Positions 19,674-63,914 are shown, counted from the first letter of the stretch. The stretch is 64,000 nt of DNA from a virus (IMGVR_UViG_3300047564_006189:125-64124), one strand, 5' to 3'. The notes: a model not told the origin generated them from the letters alone. A program made the numbers and translations.

Positions 19674-20006
19674 TTATATCACACACGTTGAGCTATGTGT
19701 CCAAGCCAAATTTTTGTTGATCATTTTTGAAAGATGAACTGCGATTCCGACTGGGTCGAATCCTCTTTGTTTTTCTTTGCCATATTCCCTTGTTACGGAG
19801 AGCCAAAGTTCTTCACCGCCTTTACCGCCAAAGACGTTGCCATTTTCAAAATCTTCACACTCCAACATCATTTGTTCAACACACTGCTTTACTACTAATC
19901 TGCAAAATTCATTAACTGCTTCTACGTCTTTCGAATCTGGTTCATTGAGGTAAAGATGATAATCAAGACCTGCTTCACACGCAAGCTTCAAGATCAAATC
20001 ATTCAT
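19674..20006 (-). CDS. small protein, 'FAELIV.EC' family
   Basis: MNDLILKLACEAGL...EFCRLVVKQC. Confidence 0.7.
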   Translation of the reverse strand: MNDLILKLACEAGLDYHLYLNEPDSKDVEAVNEFCRLVVKQCVEQMMLECEDFENGNVFGGKGGEELWLSVTREYGKEKQRGFDPVGIAVHLSKMINKNLAWTHSSTCVI

Positions 20007-20239
20007 GGCAGTTTAATTCCTAGTGTGTCGGGGCTGTAATCAATCCAGCGTTTATCTCCATCCTCATAGAGATATGCATCGTCATCGCATATTTGGAACA
20101 TGAGAGCATAAAGCTCAATGTCATACTCTTTACACATTGAAAGCTTCACTTCATCATACACCCTAACTTTGAATTTTCCATCACCAGCATACACAAGGCT
20201 GCACCACCGGCCATTGGCATTTTCTGTCTTCAACTTCAT
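20003..20239 (-). CDS. hypothetical protein
   Basis: ATGA-coupled to neighbours, RBS present. Confidence 0.6.
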   Translation of the reverse strand: MKLKTENANGRWCSLVYAGDGKFKVRVYDEVKLSMCKEYDIELYALMFQICDDDAYLYEDGDKRWIDYSPDTLGIKLP

Positions 20240-20469
20240 TCTCCTTTATCAATAACGGCCGCAGACAATTGTGCCACACTGTTCCTAATTCCTAATATTG
20301 AATTTCGGTGCTCAATAACTTCTTCTGTTTCATTCAAGATATTATCGGCCACGCACCACGCACCAACGTATTCAATCTGGCCACGCCCTGCTTTTACGCC
20401 AAGCGCGACTGCTTGCGCAAGCAAATCCCTTAAAGAGATTTTATCGTCAATAATTCTATTTTCAATCAT
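20236..20469 (-). CDS. hypothetical protein
   Basis: GGAG RBS; directly downstream of the promoter at 20512-20540. Confidence 0.6.
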   Translation of the reverse strand: MIENRIIDDKISLRDLLAQAVALGVKAGRGQIEYVGAWCVADNILNETEEVIEHRNSILGIRNSVAQLSAAVIDKGE

Positions 20470-20511
20470 GGGCAGTCTCCATAATCAAGTTACATGACTT
20501 AACATATCATG

Positions 20512-20540
20512 ATTGTATATCAGAAACTAATTCTTGTACA
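20512..20540 (-). promoter_or_regulatory. sigma70/early-type promoter
   Basis: TGTACA-17 nt-TACAAT. Confidence 0.6.
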
Positions 20541-20586
20541 CTGCCTATTGTTTCGAATGTGGTAAAATCACACGTGTTGCGAGGCG

Positions 20587-20865
20587 TTACGCCCCTACGC
20601 CCAATGAATCACTGTCGTCGTGCCGATCATCATAGATTGTAAAAGAGAAGCCATAACCTGCTAAGGCCAGCCACACCGAAAGCCGTGGGGCATGATTGCC
20701 CTTGATTGCGGCTTCTACTTCAATCATAGATACAATTTCAGTGTCTTTGAATAGAACTAATTCCCAATGTTTGTGTGATACCGGCAGTGACCCGTTATAA
20801 TCACGCTGTTTGAAGTCATACTTATTTGAAAATGGATTCGTAATTGTTAAATTAAATTTTAACAT
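20587..20865 (-). CDS. hypothetical protein
   Basis: ORF in co-oriented array; ITNPFS...HKHWEL...IYDDRH. Confidence 0.6.
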   Translation of the reverse strand: MLKFNLTITNPFSNKYDFKQRDYNGSLPVSHKHWELVLFKDTEIVSMIEVEAAIKGNHAPRLSVWLALAGYGFSFTIYDDRHDDSDSLGVGA

Positions 20866-20914
20866 TATTTCGCCTTCGTTAAATAATGATATTTTTGGTT
20901 GTTTCTAACTGAGC

Positions 20915-21157
20915 TTAATACGGTCTAGGACCTGGCCAAGGTCCGGCCCGCCCTTTTGTGTAATAGTCCCATTCCTGCCTGTCCCACTGTTCATTGCGCA
21001 TTTTTACCCAATCTGTGAATTCAATGTAATCAACATCTGATTTTGGGTCTTTATAACAATATGGATCATAGCTGCCGCACGTTTTTGCGTCTAACGTATC
21101 ATGGTCTATCTCAAAAACCATGTTATTCGTGCAACATCTAACGAGCAATTTTCTCAT
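20915..21157 (-). CDS. hypothetical protein
   Basis: ATGA-coupled ORF. Confidence 0.6.
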   Translation of the reverse strand: MRKLLVRCCTNNMVFEIDHDTLDAKTCGSYDPYCYKDPKSDVDYIEFTDWVKMRNEQWDRQEWDYYTKGRAGPWPGPRPY

Positions 21158-21426
21158 TCTTCGCTATCTTTAAGACCAAAGTTTTTAATATGATATAGCG
21201 CATCTACTATGCCACCATTACAACCTTTAAGATATGCCTTGTTAACAGGATCTTGTTGTGCTTCAATCACCTCGTCATCAATTAATTCTTGTCTGACCTG
21301 ATTGTATATTTCAACAATCAGCAAATCAGCAATCCGTTCAGCAAAAGGCACGGGATTTCCAAATTCTGGGCTCACCATAGGATCATCCCAGGCCTGTTCT
21401 GCAATTTTTCTAATTCGTTCATTCAT
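21154..21426 (-). CDS. small protein, 'FAELIV.EC' family
   Basis: MNERIRKIAEQA...IADLLIVEI...IKNFGL. Confidence 0.75.
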   Translation of the reverse strand: MNERIRKIAEQAWDDPMVSPEFGNPVPFAERIADLLIVEIYNQVRQELIDDEVIEAQQDPVNKAYLKGCNGGIVDALYHIKNFGLKDSEE

Positions 21427-21662
21427 TTTTCAACTCCAAAATGTTTTTTAATCTTATCACCAGCAAATTTAAACTCATATCCACTGTAGCACTCACCGGC
21501 TGAGCAACGATAAACGATATCAGCGCATCGCTGAACGATCAATTCGGCAAACTTTTCCAAGTCAACGCCATCCTCGTTGTGTTTGTCTTTAGCAAAAAAC
21601 ATGCCAAACTTGTCATCAGTCATACCAGCCTGTTCTGCAAGTTCTTTAATTAATTCGTTCAT
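21423..21662 (-). CDS. small protein, 'FAELIV.EC' family
   Basis: MNELIKELAEQAG...EKFAELIVQRC...IKKHFGVEK. Confidence 0.8.
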   Translation of the reverse strand: MNELIKELAEQAGMTDDKFGMFFAKDKHNEDGVDLEKFAELIVQRCADIVYRCSAGECYSGYEFKFAGDKIKKHFGVEK

Positions 21663-21868
21663 TCTTCAACTCCAAGATAATCCTTCATGGCTTGATGAAT
21701 CATATAACTCCTATCGGCTTTTTCCAAATTATATTGTCTGGCAAATTCAGCACATTCGCCAACAATCAACTCAGTGAATTTTAGGATAAATTCGTCAGTC
21801 AGTAGACCAGTATCATAGTCAGTGTATTCACCTGCACAGTTAGCAAGTTCTCTAATTCGTTTGTTCAT
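21659..21868 (-). CDS. small protein, 'FAELIV.EC' family
   Basis: MNKRIRELANCAG...KFTELIVGEC...DYLGVEE; start moved to the ATG after GGAG. Confidence 0.8.
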   Translation of the reverse strand: MNKRIRELANCAGEYTDYDTGLLTDEFILKFTELIVGECAEFARQYNLEKADRSYMIHQAMKDYLGVEE

Positions 21869-22062
21869 TCGATGCTCCAAATATATGACGGCGGAAGCCC
21901 AGCAAGACTATTTCTAACCTGTTCGTAGGTGCCATATCGTTGAAAGTTATTGCTGGAATAACCATTCCAAACTCGCACAGTCCAATTTCTTTCATTCATT
22001 TTGATCTACCCGCCGCTATTGGTCGCTATTGCTATGGAACATCGCTGTAATCTCCTCATCTG

Positions 22063-22587
<525 letters not shown>

Positions 22588-22599
22588 ATGTTTTGATTT

Positions 22600-22968
22600 T
22601 CATTCCAGTCCCTCCGGTACATCTACTTCATCACCCAACTTTGATGCCACATAGCAGCGCATGGCGGCAATCAGTGGCGTCGGACCCCAATATTCGTAAC
22701 CTGGCCCTTTGTATTGAATTGCCCACCACTTGCTGTTTAATACGTATCCAGGATCCGAACCAAGCTCCATGAACTCACGCTCAATGATCGGTCCACCTTG
22801 AGACCAGTCGGTGGTGTAGTTGAAATCGCATAGACCAATCAAGCCGTACCCGCCTTTGCGGGGTGGCAGCATCTTCTCAGTGCGCGGGTCGTAGTCTGTG
22901 AACCCTTCACACGTTGCCACCAACCAGTTGATCTGGATGGAGGTTGCTTCACTTACTTTGATCTTCAT
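22600..22968 (-). CDS. NinX/DUF2591-like phage protein
   Basis: YTTDWSQGGPIIERE...GPTPLIAAMRCYVASKLGDEV. Confidence 0.75.
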   Translation of the reverse strand: MKIKVSEATSIQINWLVATCEGFTDYDPRTEKMLPPRKGGYGLIGLCDFNYTTDWSQGGPIIEREFMELGSDPGYVLNSKWWAIQYKGPGYEYWGPTPLIAAMRCYVASKLGDEVDVPEGLE

Positions 22969-23343
22969 GCTTACCTCATTCGTTTCTGTTTGAGACAGTT
23001 CTCTGTTTCAAGTTTTTAAACGCGTTCGTTCATTCATGAACTCCAAAATGTTCTTCCACTTTAGCATCCAACACTAATAAACACTTCACAGCTTGATCAA
23101 GACATCCGGCCTGGCCGTTGCACAAGTTCGTTCAACCCGACCTTCATACAAGTAAGGAACACGTTCGCAATAGCGTTTTGCCAGGATTCGAACGATAAAC
23201 AATGGCAAAATTTCGGTCCACTTACTCAGCATAGATAACTCCTAGTTAGCACAAGTGCTGGGTTGATCTTGAATAGGTCCTTAAGACGCCATGCATACCA
23301 TTCACGTGCAACTGACATCTTCAGACAATTATTCAACAAGGCT

Positions 23344-23372
23344 ATTGTAATACAAACGTGGCATATTGTATA
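23344..23372 (-). promoter_or_regulatory. sigma70/early-type promoter
   Basis: TATACA-17 nt-TACAAT. Confidence 0.5.
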
Positions 23373-23496
23373 CAACTTATTACAATTAATTAATGACAGA
23401 CATTTCAAGTCATGAAACTAGCCTTGTTCTACCATTCAGCCCGCCTGCTTTAATAAATAGATCAACTTCTGAATTGATTGGGGCATAAGCATAAAA

Positions 23497-24039
23497 ATGT
23501 TGTTATGTGAATTATTCGAAAGCAGTGAAACATGGTACCATGGTTCATCAGCGGAAATACAACAGTTCAATCTTGATAGTGTTGGTAAACCTGGTGCGAC
23601 AGATCAAGAAGGTCCTGGGATTTATCTGACAAGCTCAATCGAGGATGCGCTGCATTATGGCAAATTTATTCACGCCGTGAAAACAGTTAGAGCACCACGA
23701 CTGGTTCCAGAGAAAAAATCTTTCACAACAGCAACAATTAAAAAGCTAATCGAGCTATCTCCAGATAAAGAAGAGGCGCTCCTGGGCTGGGATGAGAATC
23801 CAGTAACTGCTGCTTCTAAAGCATCAAGCGCGATCTACGATAGGTGGGGTCCTAATAACTTTCGTGAAATGCTTGAACAAGTATGGTACGACTTTTACCT
23901 AGAAAGCCCAAAGGCATGGTTAGATATTTTAAGCAAAAATCTCAACTATGATGGTTTTGTTCTGCAAAGGACTGGAGTTAAACATTTCATCTGTTTTAAT
24001 CCTGAGATTTTAGAAATTACTGAAGTGATTCAGTACTAA
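23497..24039 (+). CDS. ADP-ribosyltransferase-fold protein (ART-PolyVal-like), possibly virion-packaged
   Basis: WYHGS...GPGIYLTSS...ALHYG...YDG; opposite strand, AATAAATA at 23452-23459. Confidence 0.6.
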   Translation: MLLCELFESSETWYHGSSAEIQQFNLDSVGKPGATDQEGPGIYLTSSIEDALHYGKFIHAVKTVRAPRLVPEKKSFTTATIKKLIELSPDKEEALLGWDENPVTAASKASSAIYDRWGPNNFREMLEQVWYDFYLESPKAWLDILSKNLNYDGFVLQRTGVKHFICFNPEILEITEVIQY

Positions 24040-24069
24040 CTTCAGCATCCAGTTATCTCAGGAATCTTG

Positions 24070-24351
24070 TCATTTATCATCACTCAACGCAAGTAAAACT
24101 TTCCCGTTGAGACGGGCCCTGGCAGACCTGGCATATTCTGAGATGTTGCCGCATTTGTCTTCCCAGCGAAGCAAGCTGCGAGCGGTATAACCAATATCAA
24201 GTTTATTTTCGCAAGTGGCTTCTTGATTCAGAACACCATTCAGAAACACGCGAACATGATAAACGCCGTTGATGCAACGAACAGTAACTTCATGCTCGCA
24301 CTCGCCAACAATGCAACGTTGGATTCGGAGAATTTGTTTGTAGCGTTCCAT
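24070..24351 (-). CDS. hypothetical early protein
   Basis: has its own promoter and leader. Confidence 0.65.
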   Translation of the reverse strand: MERYKQILRIQRCIVGECEHEVTVRCINGVYHVRVFLNGVLNQEATCENKLDIGYTARSLLRWEDKCGNISEYARSARARLNGKVLLALSDDK

Positions 24352-24384
24352 GATATCACCTGCAGCATGTCTTACGATAGGATG

Positions 24385-24413
24385 ATTATATCAACAGCAT
24401 GCTAATTTGTACA
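24385..24413 (-). promoter_or_regulatory. early promoter
   Basis: TGTACA-17-TATAAT with TG extension; shares a 26-bp block with the promoter at 24815. Confidence 0.75.
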
Positions 24414-24427
24414 ATACTTTCAAAAAT

Positions 24428-24778
24428 TTAGATCATCTCAAATTTGATCTGGAAACCAGCCTCTTCCAGAGCCTCCATCCAATCGTTGAGCTTGGCGATA
24501 TGTTCATCCGCTTCACATACGGTTTCAAATCCTACAGGTTCACCTTCACCGAAGATATCATCACCCGCAAAAACTGGTTCAACACGCTCTACGCGTCGAT
24601 CTTGAATCCACTCGATGTACGCCTGCGCAGGGCAGGCTGCTGCAAGAATGCGCTCAGTTGTTTCGGTTGGAGTTTGCCAGGCATCGAACTTGCGGCGCTG
24701 AATCTCATTACCACGGCTACCATCTTTCTTGATGAATGCAATCTCGCGTTCTGCCACGATGAAGACGTTCATGCTCAT
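24428..24778 (-). CDS. hypothetical early protein
   Basis: WQTPT..T..I motif; GGAG RBS; own promoter. Confidence 0.65.
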   Translation of the reverse strand: MSMNVFIVAEREIAFIKKDGSRGNEIQRRKFDAWQTPTETTERILAAACPAQAYIEWIQDRRVERVEPVFAGDDIFGEGEPVGFETVCEADEHIAKLNDWMEALEEAGFQIKFEMI

Positions 24779-24814
24779 GATATCAACTCCTACAGAATTT
24801 CTTACGATAGGATG

Positions 24815-24843
24815 ATTATATCAACTTGTGCTGAGGTTGTAAA
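24815..24843 (-). promoter_or_regulatory. T4-early-like promoter
   Basis: (G)TTTACA-17-TATAAT with TG extension. Confidence 0.8.
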
Positions 24844-24849
24844 CTAGTT

Positions 24850-25062
24850 TTATTCTTCAACGCCAAAATATCTTTCAATCTGTTCAATCAATTTAGGTCG
24901 ACTAACAAACTCACCGCCAGCACCGACAATATCAATACATTTCTCAACAATCAATTCTGCAAATTTTTCTGCCACCTGCAAGTTGGTTGTTGAGAAGCCA
25001 TACTCTTGTCCTGCGTTCAGCAGCGCAGCTTCATACATCTCCTGGAGTTCTTGCTTCTTCAT
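24850..25062 (-). CDS. small protein, 'FAELIV.EC' family
   Basis: EKFAELIVEKC...IERYFGVEE. Confidence 0.8.
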   Translation of the reverse strand: MKKQELQEMYEAALLNAGQEYGFSTTNLQVAEKFAELIVEKCIDIVGAGGEFVSRPKLIEQIERYFGVEE

Positions 25063-25238
25063 TCAATATTCCCTTTTAGATCTAGCAATTTATTTAAAAT
25101 TGCAGCATCCCACGGATTGCCCTTACATATGGCGTAAATTTGTTCAATACGCTCGGTCGAAACATTAGGATCCAATTCTCTAATTAGCTCTTCCGCAATC
25201 GCAAAGTTGAATGCTTCTTGCAGCTCATCATTCAACAT
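25059..25238 (-). CDS. hypothetical protein (59 aa, below the ORF-track cutoff)
   Basis: MLNDELQEAFNFAIAEE...KGNIE; fills the gap and overlaps both neighbours. Confidence 0.55.
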   Translation of the reverse strand: MLNDELQEAFNFAIAEELIRELDPNVSTERIEQIYAICKGNPWDAAILNKLLDLKGNIE

Positions 25239-25560
25239 ATTTTGGCTTCCAAAGTTTGGCGTATTTTAATACATTAGGTTGTTCGCCCTCAATTGGGCAG
25301 ATTACTGCGCAACTCTTTTTGGCATCTAATGTTTTATTTTCATGTCCAAGATAAACATTAGGTAATGCTGCAATTTTATCAAATTCTTTTTGATTTACTC
25401 GCACTACACATTTACGAAAAGATTCTGTCAGCCAGCGTTGATAAATTTCAATGTGCTCAAATGCTAGATGGGCACCTAACATAGTATGCGCCACCAGCGT
25501 CGGTGTCATATAATCTGGGAACTCGTCAAGAACTGCAATATACAAACGCATACATGTCAC
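25228..25560 (-). CDS. peptidyl-tRNA hydrolase 2 (Pth2)-like protein
   Basis: MRLYIAVLD...LVAH...W....FRKCVVRV pattern matches PTH2-fold proteins. Confidence 0.6.
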   Translation of the reverse strand: MTCMRLYIAVLDEFPDYMTPTLVAHTMLGAHLAFEHIEIYQRWLTESFRKCVVRVNQKEFDKIAALPNVYLGHENKTLDAKKSCAVICPIEGEQPNVLKYAKLWKPKYVE

Positions 25561-25606
25561 CCTAAAAAGATTTCAAAACAGTTATTTGATTATCAAAAAT
25601 CCGCAA

Positions 25607-26137
25607 TCAATCAACTTGTTTGTTGGTCTTATTTTTAATTCTATCTACTTCTTCTTGAAGAATTTTTTCAACGTACTGATTCAGAGTCATATCGCTCTCA
25701 TGTGCCAACGTCATAAGTTTAAAAATTTCATCATCTTCTAATTCAAGCGGAAGTTTAACCCGAGTATCATATTTTTCACCAGAAATAATGGCCCGAGTCT
25801 TTTCTAAAAAATCCTCTTCTACTTCCAGCTCAATGTAGTCAACGCCATCCCATGCTTCATGCATATTAACAGCATGGTGTTCAGCTTCAGCTTGATGAGC
25901 AGTTAAGTATGCTGGATTGATTAGCCGGTATGCTCTTTCTTCTTTATAATCATGTATTGCCGCTTCATAAATTTCTTGCGTGACAGTGTCAAATACGACA
26001 CACGCTGAATGGCCGTCTTGCTCATTATTCCAATAGTCAAGATAATGCGCATTTCCACCATAACATGCCCATTGATATGGGCCGGCTTCTGTGATTTTAT
26101 AGCCGATAGCTTCCATGAAATCTTTCATTGTGATCAT
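25607..26137 (-). CDS. hypothetical protein with a possible C-terminal ribbon-helix-helix
   Basis: C-terminal LMTLAHESDMTLNQYVEKIL. Confidence 0.6.
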   Translation of the reverse strand: MITMKDFMEAIGYKITEAGPYQWACYGGNAHYLDYWNNEQDGHSACVVFDTVTQEIYEAAIHDYKEERAYRLINPAYLTAHQAEAEHHAVNMHEAWDGVDYIELEVEEDFLEKTRAIISGEKYDTRVKLPLELEDDEIFKLMTLAHESDMTLNQYVEKILQEEVDRIKNKTNKQVD

Positions 26138-26376
26138 AATATAGCTCCACCATTATTTGCAAATTCAACAATATTTTTGACTTTTCGATCTGACCAACCA
26201 GCACCAACTGATGCCCATTTACCTTTTTCCCAAAGTTGCCAACTATCACGTTTTTGCCAACATTCTTCTGGGTGATCAACTGCTTTATTATAATACAAAT
26301 CTGTTGAGAGTTTATAAAATAACGTATTGCCGTAAAACTCGGCAAAATGTGTTGCATCTTCTGGCGCTTTTGTCAT
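26134..26376 (-). CDS. hypothetical protein
   Basis: APEDATHF N-terminus; ATGA-coupled. Confidence 0.6.
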   Translation of the reverse strand: MTKAPEDATHFAEFYGNTLFYKLSTDLYYNKAVDHPEECWQKRDSWQLWEKGKWASVGAGWSDRKVKNIVEFANNGGAIL

Positions 26377-26591
26377 AATTTGAAATGATCTTTTATATTG
26401 TTCACTACATTTTTAACAACTTGCTCTTGGCTTGGCGCCACAGCCCAACGTGTTTCTTTAGCTTCTTCGGCAAGCCCAATACACTTCATAATAATCAGCT
26501 CTGCGAATTTTTGAAAGTCACCATGACTATTTGGCCAACCAGTCAGCAATCTGGCTTCAGTTGCAAGTTGTTTAATTTCCTGATTCATCAT
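26373..26591 (-). CDS. small protein, 'FAELIV.EC' family
   Basis: MNQEIKQLATEA...QKFAELIIMKC...IKDHFKL; start moved to the ATG after GGAG. Confidence 0.8.
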   Translation of the reverse strand: MMNQEIKQLATEARLLTGWPNSHGDFQKFAELIIMKCIGLAEEAKETRWAVAPSQEQVVKNVVNNIKDHFKL

Positions 26592-26745
26592 GGTCTCCAT
26601 TCCAGTTTGATACAACCATAACCTTGTCGTTTTGCCCGCCACATCTTGTACATGGCTTTAATCATACTCTCACCACAATAGACTTGCAACCAATGATAGC
26701 CATCATCGGAATGATTCCACACGTTTACTTCGAATCGCCAACCCA

Positions 26746-26943
26746 TTATTCAACTCCAAAATAACTTTTTAAGTAATATATTACGTAATCAATATCATCA
26801 CCTTCACGATAGGCGATATCTACACAATGCTGAACGATTAATTGCACAAATTCTTGGACTTCAGCGCGTTGCGCTTCCCCAGCTGTGTAAAAATTCCAAA
26901 TAAGTGGTTTTTGCTGAACGAGCTGTTCAATTCTGTCGTTCAT
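26746..26943 (-). CDS. small protein, 'FAELIV.EC' family
   Basis: MNDRIEQLVQQ...EFVQLIVQHC...KSYFGVE. Confidence 0.8.
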   Translation of the reverse strand: MNDRIEQLVQQKPLIWNFYTAGEAQRAEVQEFVQLIVQHCVDIAYREGDDIDYVIYYLKSYFGVE

Positions 26944-27066
26944 TTTTTAATTCCTGACTTAATTCTTCAATTCTTTCAGCGGCCATAAGCAATAACATTG
27001 AAAGCGCAATATTATCCCCAACGCTTTCTTTTGCGATCTTTAATGTGCGGATAAGATCTTCATCAC

Positions 27067-27276
27067 TCATTTTATGCCCATTGCCATTTTATATAATTGC
27101 AATTCACTAGTAGGGACCCATTCTTCATATGTGCCAAAGCTTCGCAAAAATGAGTGATTAGATAAATCAGTTTCAGGAGTGACTTTCACCATAGAAACTT
27201 GTACAGCAATACCATTCCCATTTTCATCGGTCCTTGGACCTCTCAACAAGACATATTCGGTGCCATTCTTTTGCAT
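27067..27276 (-). CDS. hypothetical protein
   Basis: AGGAG RBS, co-oriented. Confidence 0.6.
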   Translation of the reverse strand: MQKNGTEYVLLRGPRTDENGNGIAVQVSMVKVTPETDLSNHSFLRSFGTYEEWVPTSELQLYKMAMGIK

Positions 27277-27278
27277 TT

Positions 27279-27476
27279 TTAACTCCTATCGTTGATTCCA
27301 AAATGTTCAAACATGGAATCCATCACTTCATATTCTCCATGTTTATCAGCAATGCTAATACATTGGCGAACTACCAGTTCGGTTAATTTTTCAATTAACT
27401 CTAAATTTCCGCCCATATAATTATACGGGTTTAATCCGGCTTCCTTAGCTAATTCCATAACAAGCTGTGAATTCAT
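27279..27476 (-). CDS. small protein, 'FAELIV.EC' family
   Basis: MELAKEAGL...EKLTELVVRQC...EHFGI. Confidence 0.8.
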   Translation of the reverse strand: MNSQLVMELAKEAGLNPYNYMGGNLELIEKLTELVVRQCISIADKHGEYEVMDSMFEHFGINDRS

Positions 27477-27479
27477 GCT

Positions 27480-27686
27480 TCACCTATCTTCAAGAATGTC
27501 TACAGATTTTACAAGCTGCTCACGTGAATCTTCTTGCTGGACATCTTGATATTCCTTTGAAATTGACCGAACTGGAATACCATTGTCCAATTGTTGCTTG
27601 ATGAATACACATGCATCAGAATAATTTAAAAATGCTTGGCGACTATAAGGAACATTTCCATAATGAACCATGTATTGTTTTTTCAT
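27480..27686 (-). CDS. hypothetical protein
   Basis: co-oriented ORF with RBS. Confidence 0.55.
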   Translation of the reverse strand: MKKQYMVHYGNVPYSRQAFLNYSDACVFIKQQLDNGIPVRSISKEYQDVQQEDSREQLVKSVDILEDR

Positions 27687-27695
27687 GTTGATCCC

Positions 27696-27884
27696 TTAAG
27701 TAAAAGATTTAGCAAGCGTAATTGCATCTTCTAATGAAGCACATGTTTTGCAGAACCTCTCTTCTCCACCATACTGAAGAATTTCATAAACCGCATATAG
27801 GCCATCTTCATTTTCGTAAACGAGCCCATATGATTCTTCACCATACGAGTATTCATAAACTAGTTTCATTTTAATTCCTATCAT
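27696..27884 (-). CDS. hypothetical protein
   Basis: co-oriented ORF. Confidence 0.55.
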   Translation of the reverse strand: MIGIKMKLVYEYSYGEESYGLVYENEDGLYAVYEILQYGGEERFCKTCASLEDAITLAKSFT

Positions 27885-28063
27885 TCTATATCAAAATGTG
27901 CTTTTAGGTAATCAACATTGTCGCCATTTCGGGCTGCAACATCGATGCATTCCTGCACGATTATTTCAATGACCGCGCGCACTGTAGCATCAGAAACCAC
28001 GCCAGGGTCAGCAAACCATGGCCTAACTTGGGCTTGCTTTATCAGATCGCTATAGTCAGTCAT
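27881..28063 (-). CDS. small protein, 'FAELIV.EC' family
   Basis: LIKQAQ...IEIIVQEC...KAHFDIE; first gene after the promoter at 28094. Confidence 0.75.
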   Translation of the reverse strand: MTDYSDLIKQAQVRPWFADPGVVSDATVRAVIEIIVQECIDVAARNGDNVDYLKAHFDIE

Positions 28064-28093
28064 GAAACTTCTCCAAAATATAGTATAACAAGG

Positions 28094-28122
28094 ATTATAA
28101 CATTAGATTAGCAAATTGTAAA
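28094..28122 (-). promoter_or_regulatory. T4-early-like promoter
   Basis: (G)TTTACA-17-TATAAT with TG extension. Confidence 0.8.
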
Positions 28123-28130
28123 CAACTGTG

Positions 28131-29510
28131 TCAACATAATTTATCAAGAAATTCACTGATCATGGGCAAAGGCCTGCCAGTGGAGCTCGATCCTGACCAG
28201 CTTGTTCCGGCAATATCCAAATGGCACCAACCAGTTTCTGGTGCAAACTTTTGCAAAAACACTGCTCCTTGCGTAGCACCTGCACCTCTACCTGGGGCCA
28301 AATTACAAACATCGGCAACATTGCTTTTTAGAAAATCCTTATGGCATTCTTCAAGCGGTAGTTGCCAAGCCCAATCTTTTGTGGCCTTGCTGGCAGCGAG
28401 CAACTTTGTCACGAGTTCATCATCTTTAGAGAACACGCCAGTATGGGTATAACCTAATGCGGTAATGCAGGCTCCAGTAAGAGTGGCCAGGTCAATTGTG
28501 TATTTTCCGTTGAATCGTTTTGAGTATGTTAATGCGTCAGCCAACACCAAGCGACCTTCAGCATCGGTGTCAATAACTTCAATTGTGGTGCCGTCCATCG
28601 CGGTTAATACGTCGCCTGGCTTGACGCTGCCCCCGCTTGGCATATTTTCACAGCAAGCAGCAATTGCAACCATGCTAATTGGCAGTCCTGCCTTAGCCGC
28701 ATAAATCACTGAACATAAAGCAGTTGCTGCTCCAGCCATGTCAGATTTCATTTCATGCATGCCACCACTTGGCTTGATGCTAATCCCACCACTGTCAAAC
28801 GTCAATCCCTTACCAACCATCACGATTGGGTTATCTACTTTTGGGCCATAGCGTAAGACGATAAGTTTAGGTTCTTCAACACTGCCCTTGGCCACCCCGT
28901 AAAATGATCCCATTTTTTGCTCAAGAATATAATCAACGCCAAACACTTCACATTTGATTTTCAGATTATTTTCCTGAATATATTCTTGCACCAATTCTGC
29001 AAATTTTGATGGTGTCAAATAGTTTGGTGGCATATTAACTAGTTGTCTAACGAATGCGCGAGCTTCAGCTAAGGCCTGCCCGCGCTTGGTACTAAACTTT
29101 TTTGGCTTATTAACTACAAATTCAATTGTCTTGCGCGCCGGTGATTCTTCTTTCTTCTTAAGATTCCAATCAACTTGCAGGTTTAAAAGAGTTCGGCTAA
29201 CAAGCGTTTTGTCATTAAACTTGTAAGCACCCAAGTTAACTGTAACTTCCAACACGGATTCTGGCATAGCCATGATTGCGCCGATAATTGATGTTTCAAC
29301 ATCACCCGCATCAACACAGACAAAAACCGTAAATTCTCCTTTAACCATACTCATGAATGTGCCGCCAACTTTTTTAGGCAGCAGCGAATGCCATTTTTTA
29401 TGGCTATCCAAAATAACTGAATCATCTTTAATCTGATAAGGAACAACTACCGCCCCGCTTAGACTTTGTTTATTGACAAACTTTACCATTGGAAAGTTAA
29501 AATCAAACAT
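28131..29510 (-). CDS. pepA: M17 leucyl aminopeptidase
   Basis: GKGLTFDSGG.SIKP, MKSDMAGAA, DTDAEGRLVLAD, DLATLTGA, HLDIAGT. Confidence 0.93.
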   Translation of the reverse strand: MFDFNFPMVKFVNKQSLSGAVVVPYQIKDDSVILDSHKKWHSLLPKKVGGTFMSMVKGEFTVFVCVDAGDVETSIIGAIMAMPESVLEVTVNLGAYKFNDKTLVSRTLLNLQVDWNLKKKEESPARKTIEFVVNKPKKFSTKRGQALAEARAFVRQLVNMPPNYLTPSKFAELVQEYIQENNLKIKCEVFGVDYILEQKMGSFYGVAKGSVEEPKLIVLRYGPKVDNPIVMVGKGLTFDSGGISIKPSGGMHEMKSDMAGAATALCSVIYAAKAGLPISMVAIAACCENMPSGGSVKPGDVLTAMDGTTIEVIDTDAEGRLVLADALTYSKRFNGKYTIDLATLTGACITALGYTHTGVFSKDDELVTKLLAASKATKDWAWQLPLEECHKDFLKSNVADVCNLAPGRGAGATQGAVFLQKFAPETGWCHLDIAGTSWSGSSSTGRPLPMISEFLDKLC

Positions 29511-29593
29511 TAGGCAATCTCCCTTGTTGTGTGTTTATTGTTCCAAAATATTCTTACATGTGAATTTCTAAAATTGATCGCCGTTAAAAGCAG

Positions 29594-30850: not shown

Positions 30851-30950
30851 TTTAGCATCTCCGTATAAAATCAGCTGATGGCAAATTATAACACGCGAAT
30901 TGAGTCTAACCAACTAAATTAGTAAATTTTCGCGCTAATATTATAAAGAC

Positions 30951-30974
30951 AAAAGGGACAAATTTGTCCCTTTT
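30951..30974. terminator. palindromic terminator downstream of aceA
   Basis: AAAAGGGACAAATTTGTCCCTTTT perfect inverted repeat. Confidence 0.75.
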
Positions 30975-31086
30975 ATCATATCACCACACCCAGCAGCACG
31001 ATCTGCAAGATTGATTTTTAAATTTTATTAATCAAATCAGCGCGTTAGCTGCATTTTTACTTCCTGTGTGCCAGATTTACTGCAAC

Positions 31087-48581: not shown

Positions 48582-49085
48582 TTACGAAATACTTTTTAAA
48601 AAGCTTTCATATTCTTTTTTCTGCATTGGGTCCTTAGCAATTGCGGCTTCACCTGCTGGCCATGGTCCTTTGAGCACATGCTTTGCGTAAAAATAAGCGT
48701 AATTTGGATCTTTCGCAATTGCTTCTTCACCTGCTGGAAATGGGCCGTTGAGGACATCATATGCATACTCGATTGCCCAATCTGCGTCTTTCGCGATTGC
48801 AGGTTCACCGGCAGGCCAAGGTCTTTTAAGGACATTCCTTGCGTATAAATATGCCCATTTAGCATCTTTCGCAATTGCGTCTTCACCAGCCGGAAATGAT
48901 GTTTTAAGGATCTGTCTTGCATAATAATATGCCCATTTAGCATCTTTCGCAAGTGCGGCTTCTCTCTTCTTTAGTTCTTCGGGATTATTTTTATATACTT
49001 CCCAAAAAAAATTTGGCACTTCATTATGCAGTTTATCATAGTGATCGAGGGTTTCCGGGTTTGCATGTAATTTGTATAAGTTCAT
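48582..49085 (-). CDS. 26-aa helical repeat protein, paralog B (4 full repeats plus cap)
   Basis: AKD..WA..YA..VLK..(F/W)PAGE.AI repeats. Confidence 0.85.
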   Translation of the reverse strand: MNLYKLHANPETLDHYDKLHNEVPNFFWEVYKNNPEELKKREAALAKDAKWAYYYARQILKTSFPAGEDAIAKDAKWAYLYARNVLKRPWPAGEPAIAKDADWAIEYAYDVLNGPFPAGEEAIAKDPNYAYFYAKHVLKGPWPAGEAAIAKDPMQKKEYESFLKSIS

Positions 49086-57776: not shown

Positions 57777-58061
57777 TTATTCAGACAAGTCGTCATCTGT
57801 ACCCAGAAACGCCTTCAAGAGATGCTTGCCAACTTCTTGATTACCTGAAACCGCTGCGGCGTATATGGCGCATTCGCGCACTAGTACTTCAGCTAAAGTT
57901 TCGAGTCGTTTGTCCATGACATCCATCGGCATCACATACATTCTGGTTATTTTTTCCGTTTCTGTGGCGTTAAGAGGTTCGCCGCTGGCAAGTTTACTTG
58001 AGGCGCCATATTCTACGAAGCCCGCGCCATGAATAATTGCAGTAACTATTTGATTCTTCAT
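57777..58061 (-). CDS. small protein, divergent 'FAELIV.EC' family
   Basis: LETLAEVLVREC...LLKAFLG. Confidence 0.6.
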   Translation of the reverse strand: MKNQIVTAIIHGAGFVEYGASSKLASGEPLNATETEKITRMYVMPMDVMDKRLETLAEVLVRECAIYAAAVSGNQEVGKHLLKAFLGTDDDLSE

Positions 58062-61919: not shown

Positions 61920-61970
61920 CAATAAACTGAAAAGAAGTATCAACATTAAGCTGTTGTTGTTATTGTACTA

Positions 61971-62210
61971 CTATTGCTCTTCTTCAGTTGCACTCACTTG
62001 CTCGACTAGATCTAAAATCGATAGCAGGTGCTCTCGTCGTGATCTTAGCACGCTACGTTGAAGAGTCCTAGATGTGCTAGTATACATGTCACACGATGGC
62101 GTGTTTGGAATTAGCGCTTGCTCTTCTTGACGTAGAATATAATCGTAGCGATGCAGTGCCGTAAGAAGAACTTCAACCTCGGCATCAGTTAAATGAATAG
62201 TCTTCATCAT
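61971..62210 (-). CDS. hypothetical protein
   Basis: AAGGA RBS. Confidence 0.55.
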   Translation of the reverse strand: MMKTIHLTDAEVEVLLTALHRYDYILRQEEQALIPNTPSCDMYTSTSRTLQRSVLRSRREHLLSILDLVEQVSATEEEQ

Positions 62211-62230
62211 AGTTCCTTGTGTAAAGTGAC

Positions 62231-62473
62231 CTAGGCCATAAATTTTCGTCTAATTCGTGTTACCGTTTCAATGCTGGCACCACCTTTTGATGCCATCGAA
62301 GACGTTTCAAGAACAATTTGCTTTATAAGATTCATCAAACACTCGTCTGTAAATGTGTGTGTTAACGCCTTTGAACCATCTTGCATTGATTGGACGCTAT
62401 TATACAGTTCAGTTTGACTTACTAGTTTTTTGCAATATTCATTCATGTCGTTCTCCGCCGCGCTGATCGACAA
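62231..62473 (-). CDS. small protein, very divergent 'FAELIV.EC'-like
   Basis: MNEYCKKLV...LIKQIVLET...IRRKF. Confidence 0.45.
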   Translation of the reverse strand: MSISAAENDMNEYCKKLVSQTELYNSVQSMQDGSKALTHTFTDECLMNLIKQIVLETSSMASKGGASIETVTRIRRKFMA

Positions 62474-62656
62474 ATTTAATATTGCCTGTCATAGATTGGA
62501 CAGCCGATTTAACAGCTTGACTGAATTTATATTTTCTGCTTTGCGCTTGCACAGAATTAGTTGTGTTGAATTTATCCAGAATTGACGTGTGGATTTTTTC
62601 AAGCGGAGAAGTTTGACACATAATATATTACCCTCGTGAGTATTGAATAAAATTAT

Positions 62657-62965
62657 TTATTCGACTGCGCTTTGATAAAACCTACATACTGTAGTGTCAG
62701 GATAGTTTTGAATTAAGTCATTAAGTTTTTCTACCAAATCATCCTTGTCACAATCTGATAGATAAATGCCAGATGATGATTCAACACCATTTCGCAATAG
62801 CTTAATTGCGAAGCGACTTCCGGCATTTGATTTTACCATAACAATTTTTAGTAATTTCCTTGCAGCTTGAGCATGTTGATCTCCGAATTCTACTGCAGAT
62901 ATCTTATTACGAACAAGTGCGTCAAGTAGCGGATTCAATTCTTGACGAGTAATCTCTTTAATCAT
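62657..62965 (-). CDS. hypothetical protein
   Basis: GGAG RBS. Confidence 0.6.
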   Translation of the reverse strand: MIKEITRQELNPLLDALVRNKISAVEFGDQHAQAARKLLKIVMVKSNAGSRFAIKLLRNGVESSSGIYLSDCDKDDLVEKLNDLIQNYPDTTVCRFYQSAVE

Positions 62966-62984
62966 TTTTCATCTCCAAGACTTG

Positions 62985-63404
62985 TTAGCGTGAATATTGC
63001 TGCAACACGTAATCAACAACCCGCTGCGTGTCTTTCTTAAACATGATAGACGCAATTTCTCCGTTGAAGGCCTTATTGGGTGAACACCACCAACGAGAAA
63101 CTTGCTCTTTTGAGCCTAACATGCTTAATAGAATAGTGTCAATTGCGTTTTTTGTTTTTTGGTCTTTCACAGAAAGCGCTCTGGCCACTGGCGTGCTGAT
63201 GTCAAATACTTCTCTGATGTATTGCACTGCTGACTGTGTTTGCTCATCTTTTTTCTGCTCAAGGAGTATGTCACAGCAGTGATTAACAAGAAGCTGAGAA
63301 TACCTCGTAAGTGCATCTTCATCCCAACTGTCTGGTACTCCGTCGCACAATAGTCCTGCTTCATACGCATACAATTCTAGAATTTTATTCATGAACATCA
63401 CCAC
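62985..63404 (-). CDS. 'FAELIV.EC' domain fused to a possible Xre/MbcA/ParS C-terminal (DUF2384-like) domain
   Basis: N-terminal YEAGL...YSQLLVNHC...VFDI; C-terminal MLGS.E.V.RWW.SPNKAFNG. Confidence 0.5.
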   Translation of the reverse strand: MVMFMNKILELYAYEAGLLCDGVPDSWDEDALTRYSQLLVNHCCDILLEQKKDEQTQSAVQYIREVFDISTPVARALSVKDQKTKNAIDTILLSMLGSKEQVSRWWCSPNKAFNGEIASIMFKKDTQRVVDYVLQQYSR

Positions 63405-63625
63405 ATCGTAGTAACAATTTCGATTCTTTTTTCAAGCATCGCTTTAGCGTATTCATAATTAGCTTGAGCCCAAACTGCAAAAAAAGCCGCCCGATTTTGG
63501 TCATTTGTTAGATCTGGCTCGCCTCCAAAAATTTTACAGACCATGTCAAAATCAACTGGCGAACTCTTAGCAAATTCATCATGTTTAGTAATCGGCTCAT
63601 TTGACATTTTTATCTCCCAAACCAA
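63398..63625 (-). CDS. hypothetical protein
   Basis: HDEFA...YEYAKAML.KR motif. Confidence 0.6.
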   Translation of the reverse strand: MVWEIKMSNEPITKHDEFAKSSPVDFDMVCKIFGGEPDLTNDQNRAAFFAVWAQANYEYAKAMLEKRIEIVTTMW

Positions 63626-63914
63626 AATGGTTTTTAATTAAATCTGTGTATGTGCTAGCTGGTATTCGTTTAGCCACCGCGTCATCAATGACATCAATGC
63701 ATTGCTGAACAGTAAATTTCATAAATTTTTCCAACCCGGCGTTCGGCGGCAGCCATTCTCCATCCGGCGCTAGAGCAATTATAACATATTTGGTCTGATC
63801 TGGGAATTTAACTTGTGCCAATCCTGCCCTTTTTGCTAGGTCATCAACACCTTCAAATTTGTGCTCAATCAGCGTTGGATCTGCTTGAAATTTATCATTC
63901 AGAAATTTCATCAA
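63597..63914 (-). CDS. small protein, 'FAELIV.EC' family
   Basis: LAKRAGL...LEKFMKFTVQQC...IKNHFGL. Confidence 0.7.
   Translation of the reverse strand: MMKFLNDKFQADPTLIEHKFEGVDDLAKRAGLAQVKFPDQTKYVIIALAPDGEWLPPNAGLEKFMKFTVQQCIDVIDDAVAKRIPASTYTDLIKNHFGLGDKNVK

What the first reader, a model, noticed from the sequence alone, without database searches (positions are those of the whole stretch)
19674..63914. About 15 copies of one small-protein scaffold with fixed ends and hypervariable interiors: a possible diversified effector library
Seen in sequence: ORFs at 19674, 21154, 21423, 21659, 24850, 26373, 26746, 27279, 27881, 57777, 60617, 61112, 62231 (divergent), 62985 and 63597 share part or all of a three-part frame. 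The frame is MNERI.ELA.QAG / (E)KFAELIV.EC / IK.HFGVEE, and the segments between anchors differ in length and sequence. The copies cluster in the two accessory regions behind early-type promoters. Inference: a constant helical framework with swappable loops, expanded and expressed early, is what a repertoire of host-protein binders or anti-defence factors would look like. I have seen similar hypothetical proteins in aquatic phages but know of no assigned function.
Basis: partly seen in the sequence, partly recalled or inferred. Interest (0 to 1): 0.8.

Follow-up and report, generated by a model that had tools for sequence, protein, structure and literature searches.

The report
Shuffled two-cassette phage mini-protein arrays
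A jumbo-phage fragment carries 15 copies of an unannotated small helical protein whose two variable halves are swapped between copies and between phages at three conserved sequence anchors, which builds a combinatorial repertoire of unknown function.

Summary
All 15 ORFs are the 15 best hits of a family profile among 989 six-frame fragments of the window: 14 at E<=4.5e-4 and one marginal. The family is large (3,765 clusters at 50% identity). It comes from viral contigs and has no Pfam, PHROG, PDB or fold match. It usually sits in arrays: 67 of 80 IMG/VR loci hold at least 2 copies.

Each gene is anchor A, segment 1, anchor B, segment 2, anchor C. The two segments reassort independently. In 91 of 95 pairs with similar segment 1, segment 2 is unrelated. 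In 27 of 29 pairs with similar segment 2, segment 1 is unrelated. DNA identity blocks stop at the gene ends and at anchor B (95 of 108 pairs). Anchors keep the same, often rare, codons (0.68 observed against 0.43 expected).

Syntenic orthologues show purifying selection, not hypermutation. Array 1 has turned over completely against a close relative.

The "effector/anti-defence" role remains untested and has only weak hints.

The parts
19674..20006 (-). family copy (110 aa). Anchors A and B are present; the C-terminal part is divergent and extended.
   Evidence: profile E 1.9e-8, matching states 1-56
21154..21426 (-). family copy (90 aa). Anchor A and a degenerate anchor B are present; there is no anchor C. 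Its start overlaps the stop of copy 21423.
   Evidence: profile E 2.3e-6, states 1-57; upstream junction read
21423..21662 (-). archetypal family copy (79 aa): anchor A 21624-21662, segment 1 21561-21623, anchor B 21522-21560, segment 2 21456-21521, anchor C 21426-21455
   Evidence: profile E 1.2e-31. AlphaFold2 model has pLDDT 74.8. Contigs of two runs lack this unit (joint 21434>21659).
   Evidence: profile E 7.4e-16. Its segment 2 is 63-68% identical to P0172, P0186 and P0131, whose segment 1 is only 14-23% identical.
24850..25062 (-). family copy (70 aa) with an atypical anchor A
   Evidence: profile E 5.7e-14
26373..26588 (-). family copy (71 aa from ATG 26588)
   Evidence: profile E 3.1e-14; start read
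26746..26943 (-). family copy (65 aa)
   Evidence: profile E 8.3e-15; phmmer E 8.4e-9 to copy 27881
27279..27476 (-). family copy (65 aa)
   Evidence: profile E 9.3e-11
27881..28063 (-). family copy (60 aa), first gene of array 1, with a degenerate anchor A
   Evidence: profile E 1.9e-7; promoter-like site directly upstream
57777..58061 (-). divergent family copy (94 aa) with a long segment 1
   Evidence: profile E 1.4e-4; syntenic orthologue in L082 at 46% identity
60617..60838 (-). family copy (73 aa from ATG 60838)
   Evidence: profile E 2.3e-7; orthologue in L082 at 71% identity
61112..61372 (-). divergent family copy (86 aa) without anchor A
   Evidence: profile E 4.5e-4, states 13-73; orthologue in L082 at 65% identity
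62231..62446 (-). marginal family copy (71 aa from ATG 62446); anchor B lacks the Cys
   Evidence: profile E 3.7e-3; orthologue in L082 at 85% identity
62985..63392 (-). family domain (residues 1-~67) plus a ~65-aa C-terminal extension that resembles the Xre/MbcA/ParS toxin-binding domain below threshold
   Evidence: profile E 5.5e-9. PF09722 scores E 0.094 on this copy and E 2.6e-4, 21.3 bits against a cut-off of 24.5, on its orthologue P0141.
63597..63914 (-). family copy (105 aa) with an N-terminal extension
   Evidence: profile E 8.6e-9; orthologue in L082 at 61% identity
22996..23066 (-). orphan junction scar: the end of an anchor C, an overlapping stop/start, and the start of an anchor A that stops after 9 codons
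   Evidence: 70% identical to the 71-nt junction repeat D2; three-frame reading; weak profile hit E 0.1
28094..28122 (-). sigma-70-like promoter match (11 of 12, with TG) in front of array 1
   Evidence: a consensus match only
24789..24825 (-). one of two copies of a 37-nt repeat (the other is at 24359-24395, 92% identical). Each overlaps a strong promoter-like site.
   Evidence: repeat D8; promoter-like sites at 24843-24815 and 24413-24385

Best explanation
SHOWN. The 15 ORFs belong to one very large, unannotated family of 60-110-aa helical proteins found in viral contigs.
- Each gene is built as anchor A (MNERIKELAEQAG-like), variable segment 1, anchor B (EKFAELIVxEC-like), variable segment 2, anchor C (IKxHFGVEE-like).
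- The half-gene modules [A-seg1-B] and [B-seg2-C] reassort almost freely between copies and between phages.
- Whole gene units are gained or lost at the C/A junction. There the stop and start overlap (ATGA), and a GGAG inside anchor C sits where the next gene's ribosome-binding site would be.
- The anchors are conserved at the codon level.
- Arrays turn over between related phages.
- Vertically inherited copies are under purifying selection.

INFERRED.
- The three anchors fold together into a small conserved core. The two segments form exposed excursions, namely the loop after helix 1 and the tip of the helix-2/helix-3 hairpin.
- The anchors serve as homologous-recombination junctions.
- The outcome is a combinatorial repertoire of small specific binders, made from operons in the replication and accessory regions. 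Its most likely use is against variable host proteins such as defence or toxin components.
For: Membership and breadth.

Segment reassortment.
- Among 230 unique complete copies from IMG/VR loci there are 26,335 pairs.
- 95 pairs have segment 1 at least 60% identical; 91 of these have segment 2 below 30%.
- 29 pairs have segment 2 at least 60% identical; 27 of these have segment 1 below 30%.
- Only 2 pairs are similar in both segments.
- In the wider set of 489 sequences, one segment-1 type of 104 sequences (it includes the protein of copy 21423) carries 91 segment-2 types. One segment-2 type of 10 sequences is joined to 10 segment-1 types.
- Examples with 100% identical segment 2 and unrelated segment 1 are listed.

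DNA blocks.
- 78 of 89 segment-1-sharing pairs have a similarity block running from the gene start to the end of anchor B.
- 17 of 19 segment-2-sharing pairs have a block running from anchor B to the stop codon.
- Block identity is 71-97%.

Codons.
- Between loci, same codon given same residue is 0.684 in anchors (bootstrap 0.670-0.702) against 0.427 expected from each locus's codon usage.
- In the segments it is 0.478 against 0.415.
- Rare codons dominate in anchors: CGA 82% against 13% background, GCC 69% against 20%, GGA 89% against 24%.

Junctions and local repeats.
- 51 of 214 consecutive copies overlap by ATGA.
- The GGAG is seen in front of copies 21154, 21423, 21659 and 27881.
- In this window, anchor and junction DNA repeats were found in array 1.

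This lineage.
- Contigs of two runs from two studies join 21434 to 21659, removing one gene unit.
- The close relative G001 (topoisomerase 96% and peptidase 80% identical) has 26 copies. The best matches to array-1 copies there are only 35-48% identical.

Selection and diversity.
- Six syntenic orthologue pairs give dN 0.18 in anchors and 0.29 in segments, with pS 0.66-0.76.
- Within a locus, only 1 of 462 pairs shares a segment.

Fold: helices at residues 3-11, 16-22, 35-57 and 61-75, mean pLDDT 74.8.
Against: - No result bears directly on what the proteins bind or do. The binder and anti-defence reading is inference.
- dS is saturated in the only orthologue comparison, so dN/dS values are rough.
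- In array 2, anchors show no excess synonymous conservation (pS 0.74-0.84) and no DNA repeats. DNA-level anchor conservation is therefore not universal.
- Window copies follow the pool's consensus codons only in part.
- Part of the codon conservation in anchor C may reflect the embedded ribosome-binding site rather than recombination.
- Sampling is biased. The 80 loci and 120 of the database proteins were retrieved through similarity to copy 21423, which inflates pairs that share segment 1. Identical copies were collapsed before counting, which lowers the count of pairs similar in both segments.
- The family is dispensable. There were 0 matches in a 184-kb relative (52% complete) and 0 in the cultured relatives RsoM2USA and XacN1.
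- The population evidence comes from metagenome contigs. Joint sides are only 35 nt at a likeness of at least 90%, and other copies with similar anchors could mimic such joints.
Confidence: 0.55

Rival explanations
1. Selfish or near-neutral recombination-linker genes. The anchors persist because they promote their own copying and exchange by gene conversion and unequal crossover in recombination-prone phage genomes. The proteins contribute little to the phage.
For: Anchors are conserved at the codon level with rare codons. Exchange units coincide with the gene and half-gene boundaries. An orphan junction scar lies at 22996-23066. Array 1 has turned over completely against a close relative. 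The family is absent from some relatives.
Against: All 15 frames are open. Segments of syntenic orthologues have dN 0.29 against pS 0.66, which indicates constraint on the protein. Copies within a genome almost never share a segment (1 of 462 pairs), as expected if diversity is selected. Stop/start overlaps and an embedded GGAG suggest the genes are translated.
Confidence: 0.17
2. An ordinary old paralogue family. The helices are conserved because they form the fold, the loops drift freely, and no special exchange mechanism operates.
For: Window copies are only 12-30% identical to one another. Array-2 copies behave like ordinary vertically inherited genes with dN/dS of 0.08-0.25, the same range as neighbouring non-family ORFs.
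Against: This cannot explain identical or 75-97% identical half-genes joined to unrelated halves. It also cannot explain the near absence of pairs similar in both segments (2 against 118 similar in one only), or the excess codon identity in anchors.
Confidence: 0.08
3. Packaged internal or injected proteins. The strictly N-terminal anchor A would act as a capsid-targeting and cleavage signal, as in the internal proteins of T4 (recalled from memory, not from a call), with a variable payload delivered into the host.
For: M1 and N2 are at least 90% conserved. Anchor A is about 10-13 residues and ends in L-A-E; I recall this as resembling the T4 prohead-protease site. The window has T4-like replication genes and a ClpP-family protease. 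The genes are multi-copy and variable.
Against: Anchors B and C are as conserved as A. Anchor A is internal in tandem double-domain proteins and in proteins with 80-157-aa N-terminal extensions. The conservation of N2 is partly explained by the ATGA stop/start overlap. The family also occurs in a 33.6-kb circular genome next to erf, SSB and RusA-like genes.
Confidence: 0.06
4. Targeted hypermutation (a diversity-generating retroelement or similar) creates the variable interiors.
For: The pattern is variable segments between constant flanks.
Against: Segment lengths vary (8-33 and 9-48 aa), which template-driven mutagenesis does not produce. Identical segments recur in different genes. Of the 97 ORFs of at least 45 aa picked for the window, 89 were scanned against Pfam and none matched a reverse transcriptase. 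Orthologues show purifying selection.
Confidence: 0.01

Closest known systems
gp38 tail-fibre adhesins of T2/T6-type phages (PMC3157838; abstract read)
   Same: Hypervariable segments are separated by short, highly conserved motifs. According to the abstract these motifs form the structural core and allow 'easily interchanged specificity determinants'.
   Different: There is no sequence or fold relationship. gp38 is a single-copy virion adhesin with glycine-rich motifs. Here the genes are 65-110-aa helical proteins in arrays of up to 14 per 16 kb, in non-structural regions, with unknown targets.
Type I restriction-modification specificity subunits (HsdS): reassortment of target-recognition domains at flanking repeats (PMC3077401; abstract read)
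   Same: The architecture is conserved / variable domain 1 / conserved / variable domain 2 / conserved. Recombination at the conserved DNA reassorts the two variable parts and changes their number.
   Different: No homology was found: no Pfam hit for any copy. The segments here are about 20 aa, not about 150-aa DNA-binding domains. The genes are phage-borne and multi-copy.
PeSL promoter/stem-loop cassettes of T4-like phages (PMC4122927; abstract read. PMC2839356; search listing only)
   Same: Short conserved DNA motifs in hyperplastic regions serve as points of exchange between otherwise unrelated sequences. The window also has a duplicated 37-nt promoter-like repeat inside array 1.
   Different: PeSLs are intergenic regulatory elements. 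Here the exchange points are coding anchors inside and at the ends of one protein family.
Polymorphic toxin and Rhs systems with displaced C-terminal tips (PMC3482391 and PMC2935791; search listings only)
   Same: A conserved part is joined to many alternative variable parts by recombination with cassettes.
   Different: Those are large bacterial toxins paired with immunity genes. No toxin domain or immunity pairing is seen here.

Membership tests
Any curated protein family (Pfam-A, PHROGs v4) | a profile match at or above the curated or significance threshold | tested here: not met
   0 of 15 window copies matched Pfam at E<0.01. PHROGs gave hits for only one copy, 57777, at E 0.0025-0.0033 to families of unknown function. 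Of 120 family members, none matched any PHROG and only 2 gave single stray Pfam hits.
Solved structures and known folds | sequence or fold similarity to a PDB entry | tested here: inconclusive
   The profile against PDB sequences gave a best E of 0.22. Foldseek against PDB gave no hit at E<=0.001. VIA-align over about 48,000 chains gave a best Z of 5.2, in the range common for helical models. BFVD returned only uncharacterised proteins of uncultured phages.
Xre/MbcA/ParS antitoxin C-terminal toxin-binding domain (PF09722), for the C-terminal extension of copy 62985 | a profile score at or above the gathering cut-off of 24.5 bits | tested here: not met
   13.2 bits (E 0.094) on the window copy. 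21.3 bits (E 2.6e-4) on the orthologue P0141.
Xre/MbcA/ParS antitoxin C-terminal toxin-binding domain (PF09722) | an adjacent cognate toxin gene (RES, ParT or MbcT type) | tested here: not met
   The neighbouring ORFs 62657-62965 and 63398-63625 have no Pfam hit at E<=1e-3.
Xre/MbcA/ParS antitoxin C-terminal toxin-binding domain (PF09722) | the fold of the domain | tested here: inconclusive
   The AlphaFold2 model from 3 sequences has pLDDT 52.1, too low to search with. The profile against PDB sequences found no antitoxin.
Diversity-generating retroelement targets | a reverse transcriptase and a template repeat, with variable regions of equal length | tested here: not met
   Of the 97 ORFs of at least 45 aa picked for the window, 89 were scanned against Pfam and none matched a reverse transcriptase. 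Segment lengths vary from 8-33 and 9-48 aa.
T4-type internal proteins with a capsid-targeting sequence | N-terminal signal cleaved by the prohead protease; protein present in virions | not testable with these tools
   The resemblance rests only on recall. Anchor A is internal in several fused forms.
PeSL cassettes | an intergenic early promoter plus a stem-loop at indel boundaries | tested here: inconclusive
   Promoter-like sites are enriched in array 1 only (38 against 24.0 +/- 4.2; array 2 has 16 against 20.9). One 37-nt promoter-like repeat is duplicated. The exchange boundaries measured here lie in coding anchors, not between genes.

The most novel reading that the evidence does not exclude
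Many uncultured aquatic phages maintain a natural combinatorial library. It consists of arrays of mini-proteins whose two specificity segments are reassorted through DNA-level-conserved coding linkers. This lets a phage population sample binder combinations against fast-changing host targets such as defence or toxin proteins. It would be a phage-side counterpart of the reassortment seen in restriction specificity subunits or tail-fibre adhesins, but applied to intracellular early proteins.
Probability: 0.3. Interest if true: 0.9.

Novelty: new variant of a known kind. Interest (0 to 1): 0.72.

Why it matters
Small unannotated genes fill the variable regions of phage genomes and are usually treated as unrelated orphans. 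Here thousands of them form one family with a simple grammar: three anchors and two cassettes. There is clear evidence that the cassettes are exchanged at the anchors.

- This gives a handle for annotating a large share of 'hypothetical' genes in freshwater viromes.
- It is a tractable natural system for studying how phages generate protein diversity without mutagenic enzymes.
- If the segments prove to set binding specificity, it offers a ready-made small scaffold and a map of which positions tolerate replacement.
- It gives a concrete test of whether coding sequences are kept identical at the DNA level in order to act as recombination sites.

Tried and rejected
- Homodimer prediction for copy 21423 (alignment A3, two copies): verdict 'no answer', scores 0.30, 0.42 and 0.31 against a mark of 0.42. 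It is evidence for neither side.
- Structure of copy 62985 with its C-terminal extension: pLDDT 52.1, unusable.
- Search for relatives of that extension: only the protein itself was found.
- tblastn of copy 21423 and of P0192 against 50,697 GenBank phage records: no hit at E<=1e-3. One uncultured spring phage appeared at E 0.01-0.3.
- megablast of array 1 against the same records: no match.
- ESM Atlas: only unnamed viral clusters.
- Rfam at gathering thresholds and tRNA scans of the window: 0 hits each.
- Literature: a search for the motif strings 'FAELIV' and 'HFGVE' found 3 unrelated papers. Three concept searches found analogies but no description of this family. I therefore found no report of it in the library searched. 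Supplementary files were not consulted.
- Whole-gene positive selection: rejected. dN/dS is 0.08-0.25 in six orthologue pairs, with dS saturated.
- Read laying: parts of array 1 without RNA-contig cover, and the RNA joints 25077>25662 and 27345>28008, were not interpreted.

Full report
WHAT THE WINDOW IS. The window is almost the whole of a 64,124-base viral contig with 40% G+C. Nearly all genes lie on the minus strand. Pfam finds the following:
- a T4-like replication and nucleotide-metabolism set: family B DNA polymerase, DsbA-like regulator, DnaB-like helicase, Toprim primase, both topoisomerase II subunits, thymidylate synthase, RNase H-like exonuclease, RNA ligase 1 and PhoH;
- a ClpP-family protease, an M17 aminopeptidase, an isocitrate lyase, and a VWA/AAA_5 pair;
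- large lectin-domain fibre proteins.

The polymerase is closest to jumbo phages: 48.7% to Ralstonia phage RsoM2USA and about 38% to Xanthomonas phage XacN1. The array-1 stretch (19600-28200) occurs in freshwater, wastewater and aquaculture metagenomes from 13 studies.

THE OBSERVATION. All 15 ORFs are present on the minus strand.
- Pairwise phmmer links 9 of them. An iterated in-window profile supports 11 of 15 at E<=1e-3.
- I then built a profile from 577 domain sequences taken from other contigs and databases. One of them, P0001, equals copy 21423. Fourteen have E from 1.2e-31 to 4.5e-4, ORF 62231 has E 3.7e-3, and the next fragment has E 0.1.
- The motif description is accurate. In 120 aligned members the Cys of the middle motif is invariant, and M1, N2, L8, A12, F-A-x-L-I and H-F-G are at least 90% conserved.
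- Five copies most likely start at an internal ATG that opens the N-terminal motif.
- The only additional element is a decayed junction at 22996-23066.

HOW BIG AND HOW KNOWN THE FAMILY IS.
- A profile of 11 window copies finds 3,765 clusters (50% identity representatives) at E<=1e-3, nearly all 60-110 aa.
- A single copy finds 253 proteins. Every source-given name among the 120 listed is 'hypothetical protein', apart from one stray 'peroxiredoxin' label, and none has a Pfam domain.
- No copy and no sampled member matches Pfam or PHROGs in a meaningful way.
- PDB sequence and fold searches give nothing above background. BFVD and the ESM Atlas return only unnamed proteins of uncultured phages.
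- GenBank phage records hold essentially none. RsoM2USA and XacN1 have 0 profile matches.
Of the 80 loci fetched, 67 hold two or more copies within at most 20 kb, with up to 14 in 16 kb. There are 288 copies in all, always on one strand.
- Copy number differs widely between genomes: 26 in the 101-kb relative G001, 18 in a complete 374-kb genome, 10 in a complete 235-kb genome, 3 and 2 in two others, 0 in a 184-kb relative, and 1 in a 33.6-kb circular genome.

ANATOMY. Aligning all copies to the profile divides each gene into five parts:
- anchor A (13 residues);
- segment 1 (8-33 aa, median 20);
- anchor B (13 residues, ending in E-C-x);
- segment 2 (9-48 aa, median 20);
- anchor C (10 residues, I-K-x-H-F-G-V-E-E).

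AlphaFold2 with 120 sequences gives a moderately confident model (pLDDT 74.8, pTM 0.61) with helices at 3-11, 16-22, 35-57 and 61-75. Confidence is lowest in residues 21-30, inside segment 1 (block mean 51). I infer, without having inspected coordinates, that the three anchors pack into one small core. Segment 1 would then be a loop excursion and segment 2 the distal tip of the helix-2/helix-3 hairpin.

THE MAIN RESULT: THE TWO SEGMENTS REASSORT.
- In 489 unique complete sequences, the pairwise identity of segment 1 is uncorrelated with that of segment 2 (r = -0.005). Of 157 pairs with segment 2 at least 70% identical, 138 have segment 1 below 30%. Of 5,406 pairs with segment 1 at least 70% identical, 5,301 have segment 2 below 30%. 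The second figure is inflated because many sequences were retrieved through copy 21423.
- Using only copies from the IMG/VR loci (230 unique, 26,335 pairs), r = 0.003. There are 95 pairs with segment 1 at least 60% identical, and 91 of them have segment 2 below 30%. There are 29 pairs with segment 2 at least 60% identical, and 27 of them have segment 1 below 30%. Only 2 pairs are alike in both.
- Many pairs have a 100% identical segment 2 of 17-34 residues next to an unrelated segment 1.
- One segment-1 type (104 sequences, including the protein of copy 21423) carries 91 segment-2 types. A segment-2 type of 10 sequences is joined to 10 segment-1 types.
- Window copies take part. Copy 21659 shares segment 2 (63-68%) but not segment 1 (14-23%) with three database proteins. 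Copies 62985 and 27279 share segment 1 but not segment 2 with others.
- As a control for the measure, the six syntenic orthologue pairs between the window and its relative keep both segments: 68% and 56% identity.

BREAKPOINTS AND DNA-LEVEL ANCHORS.
- For 108 between-locus pairs that share one segment only, I located the best DNA similarity block. It runs from the gene start (median offset -1 nt) to the end of anchor B (median -1 nt) in 78 of 89 segment-1 pairs. It runs from the start of anchor B (median +7 nt) to the stop codon (median 0) in 17 of 19 segment-2 pairs. Block identities are 71-97% (examples). The exchanged units are therefore [A-seg1-B] and [B-seg2-C].
- The anchors themselves match between copies as 21-54-nt stretches at 82-100% identity.
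- Across 325 copies, anchor codons are far more uniform than the amino acids require, and they are often rare codons. Arg-4 is CGA in 82% (background 13%), Ala-37 GCC 69% (20%), Leu-39 TTG 78% (21%), Arg-42 CGG 48% (6%) and Gly-72 GGA 89% (24%). Codons in the segments follow the background.
- In between-locus comparisons, the chance of the same codon given the same residue is 0.684 (bootstrap 0.670-0.702) in anchors against 0.427 expected. In segments it is 0.478 (0.451-0.509) against 0.415. This covers 80 loci and 289 copies with G+C from 33% to 56%.
- Part of this has a second explanation. In arrays the stop of one copy overlaps the start of the next (ATGA in 51 of 214 consecutive pairs; 73 pairs lie within -8 to +30 nt). 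The GGA-GTT codons of anchor C place a GGAG about 8 nt before that start. This is visible in front of copies 21154, 21423, 21659 and 27881. Anchor B has no such explanation.

THIS PHAGE'S OWN LINEAGE.
- Contig G001 (loci L081, L082) is a close relative: topoisomerase large subunit 96% and aminopeptidase 80% identical.
- Array 2 is syntenic with it. Six copies have orthologues at 46-85% identity, in the same order. Their dN of 0.12-0.44 is like that of interspersed non-family ORFs (0.12-0.55) and higher than that of core genes (0.03-0.3). dS is saturated. dN/dS is 0.08-0.25 where it can be computed.
- Pooled over these pairs, anchors have dN 0.18 and segments 0.29, with synonymous differences of 0.66-0.76 per site. 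Both parts are under purifying selection, with no sign of hypermutation.
- Array 1 differs. The relative has 19 copies in the 10 kb downstream of the aminopeptidase, but the best match to any array-1 copy of the window is 35-48% identical. The content of the array has been replaced.
- Inside array 1 the anchors are still recognisable as DNA repeats. There are five copies of a 41-nt anchor-B repeat and three copies of a 71-nt C/A junction repeat, one of which is the scar at 22996-23066. Array 2 has none.
- Contigs of two DNA runs from two studies join 21434 to 21659. That removes exactly one gene unit (copy 21423) between two junction repeats. Other contigs diverge at 21454/21459, 21558 and 21624, which are the edges of anchors C, B and A of that copy. 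These are metagenome contigs with short matching sides (35 nt). I treat them as consistent with junction-mediated gain and loss, not as proof.

CONTEXT AND FUNCTIONAL HINTS.
- Array 1 follows an 11-of-12 sigma-70-like match. It holds more such sites than shuffles do (38 against 24.0 +/- 4.2). Array 2 does not.
- Contigs of one metatranscriptome run lie on parts of array 1, including all of copy 21423 with no differences. DNA in that library cannot be excluded.
- I scanned the nearest large ORFs flanking arrays in 72 non-redundant loci. Of 119 scanned, 49 had a Pfam hit at E<=1e-5. These are mostly replication, repair and nucleotide or NAD metabolism genes: 5'-3' exonuclease/RNase H, DNA and RNA ligase, ribonucleotide reductase, HD, NUDIX-NMNAT and NAMPT. 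Two are Tad3 Thoeris inhibitors and one is MazE-like.
- Longer family members are mostly tandem doubles. Others are fusions to zinc ribbons, one Lar-like restriction-alleviation domain, one BRCT domain, and a recurrent C-terminal module.
- Copy 62985 and its orthologues carry a C-terminal extension that resembles the toxin-binding domain of Xre/MbcA/ParS antitoxins but stays below Pfam's cut-off. No toxin gene is adjacent.
- None of this shows what the proteins do.

MECHANISM I COMMIT TO.
- Shown: one family, with a three-anchor, two-segment grammar. Half-gene and whole-gene exchange occurs at the anchors. Anchors are conserved at the codon level. Arrays turn over. Vertically inherited copies are under purifying selection. 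Segments within a genome are almost never redundant.
- Inferred: homologous recombination at the anchors generates the combinations, which is plausible in phages with T4-like recombination-dependent replication. The anchors form the fold's core and the segments are the exposed specificity surfaces. The repertoire is used against variable host targets.
- Odds: I put the genetic part at about 0.85 and the binder or counter-defence part at about 0.35. The combined statement is at 0.55.

COMPARISON WITH WHAT IS KNOWN. The logic is that of gp38 adhesins, where conserved motifs separate interchangeable hypervariable segments (PMC3157838, abstract). It is also the logic of HsdS target-recognition-domain reassortment at flanking repeats (PMC3077401, abstract) and of PeSL-mediated exchange in T4-like hyperplastic regions (PMC4122927, abstract). 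The family is a member of none of these. No homology was detected, the exchange points are coding anchors of a small helical protein, and the genes form arrays in non-structural regions. I found no description of the family in the searched library.

LIMITS.
- Retrieval was seeded on one copy and on one peptide pattern.
- Some loci come from related phages. For example, L015 appears to be a fragment of the same or a very similar phage as G001, because the bit scores of their family matches coincide.
- Identical copies were collapsed before pair counts.
- dS is saturated.
- The structural inference rests on a medium-confidence model.
- Population evidence rests on contigs.
- The host is unknown.

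Noticed in passing
window 24359-24395 and 24789-24825 (-): A 37-nt direct repeat (92% identical) overlaps the two strongest internal promoter-like sites of array 1 (24413-24385 and 24843-24815, 10 and 11 of 12 matches). This duplicated promoter cassette is reminiscent of PeSL elements. One DNA run has 412 extra letters between 24817 and 24859.
   Followed up: partly
window 23497-24039 (+): The only sizeable plus-strand ORF inside array 1 resembles ADP-ribosyltransferases of polyvalent proteins (PF18760, E 2.4e-5, 25.5 bits, below the 31.2 cut-off).
   Followed up: no
window 22063-22587 (-): A 174-aa ORF with an (EQ)n repeat and a C-terminal 'PVAW...PLYT' motif. A similar module (PVAW ... LTDEE ... 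IEAKLKEKN) is fused behind the family domain in several longer proteins from other contigs, for example P0267, P0270, P0278 and P0283. It may be another shuffled small module.
   Followed up: no
locus L012, 7955-11552: Three family copies (9893, 10123, 10329) lie between two ORFs that match the N-terminal part (model positions 2-337) and the C-terminal part (376-522) of the ribonucleotide reductase large-subunit barrel. The array appears to sit inside a split gene.
   Followed up: no
loci L056 4563-5069 and L061 10651-11130: Tad3 (type I Thoeris inhibitor, PF25185, E 9e-29 and 3e-33) is the first large ORF downstream of the family array in two loci.
   Followed up: no
window 28131-32430 and 17278-19560 (-): Host-like metabolic and accessory genes flank array 1: an M17 leucyl aminopeptidase, an AAA_5 ATPase, an isocitrate lyase (E 2.4e-102) and a 760-aa VWA-domain protein.
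   Followed up: no
window 1697-2503 and 2643-7187 (-); 48582-49085 and 49089-49766 (-): There are two further local paralogue pairs. Two fibre-like proteins share their first ~40 residues. Two adjacent HTH_35 proteins both best match one ORF of the relative.
   Followed up: no
window 21852-21995 (-): A 47-aa ORF directly upstream of copy 21659 ends in H-I-F-G-A, with a GGAG before the next start. It may be a remnant of an anchor C.
   Followed up: no
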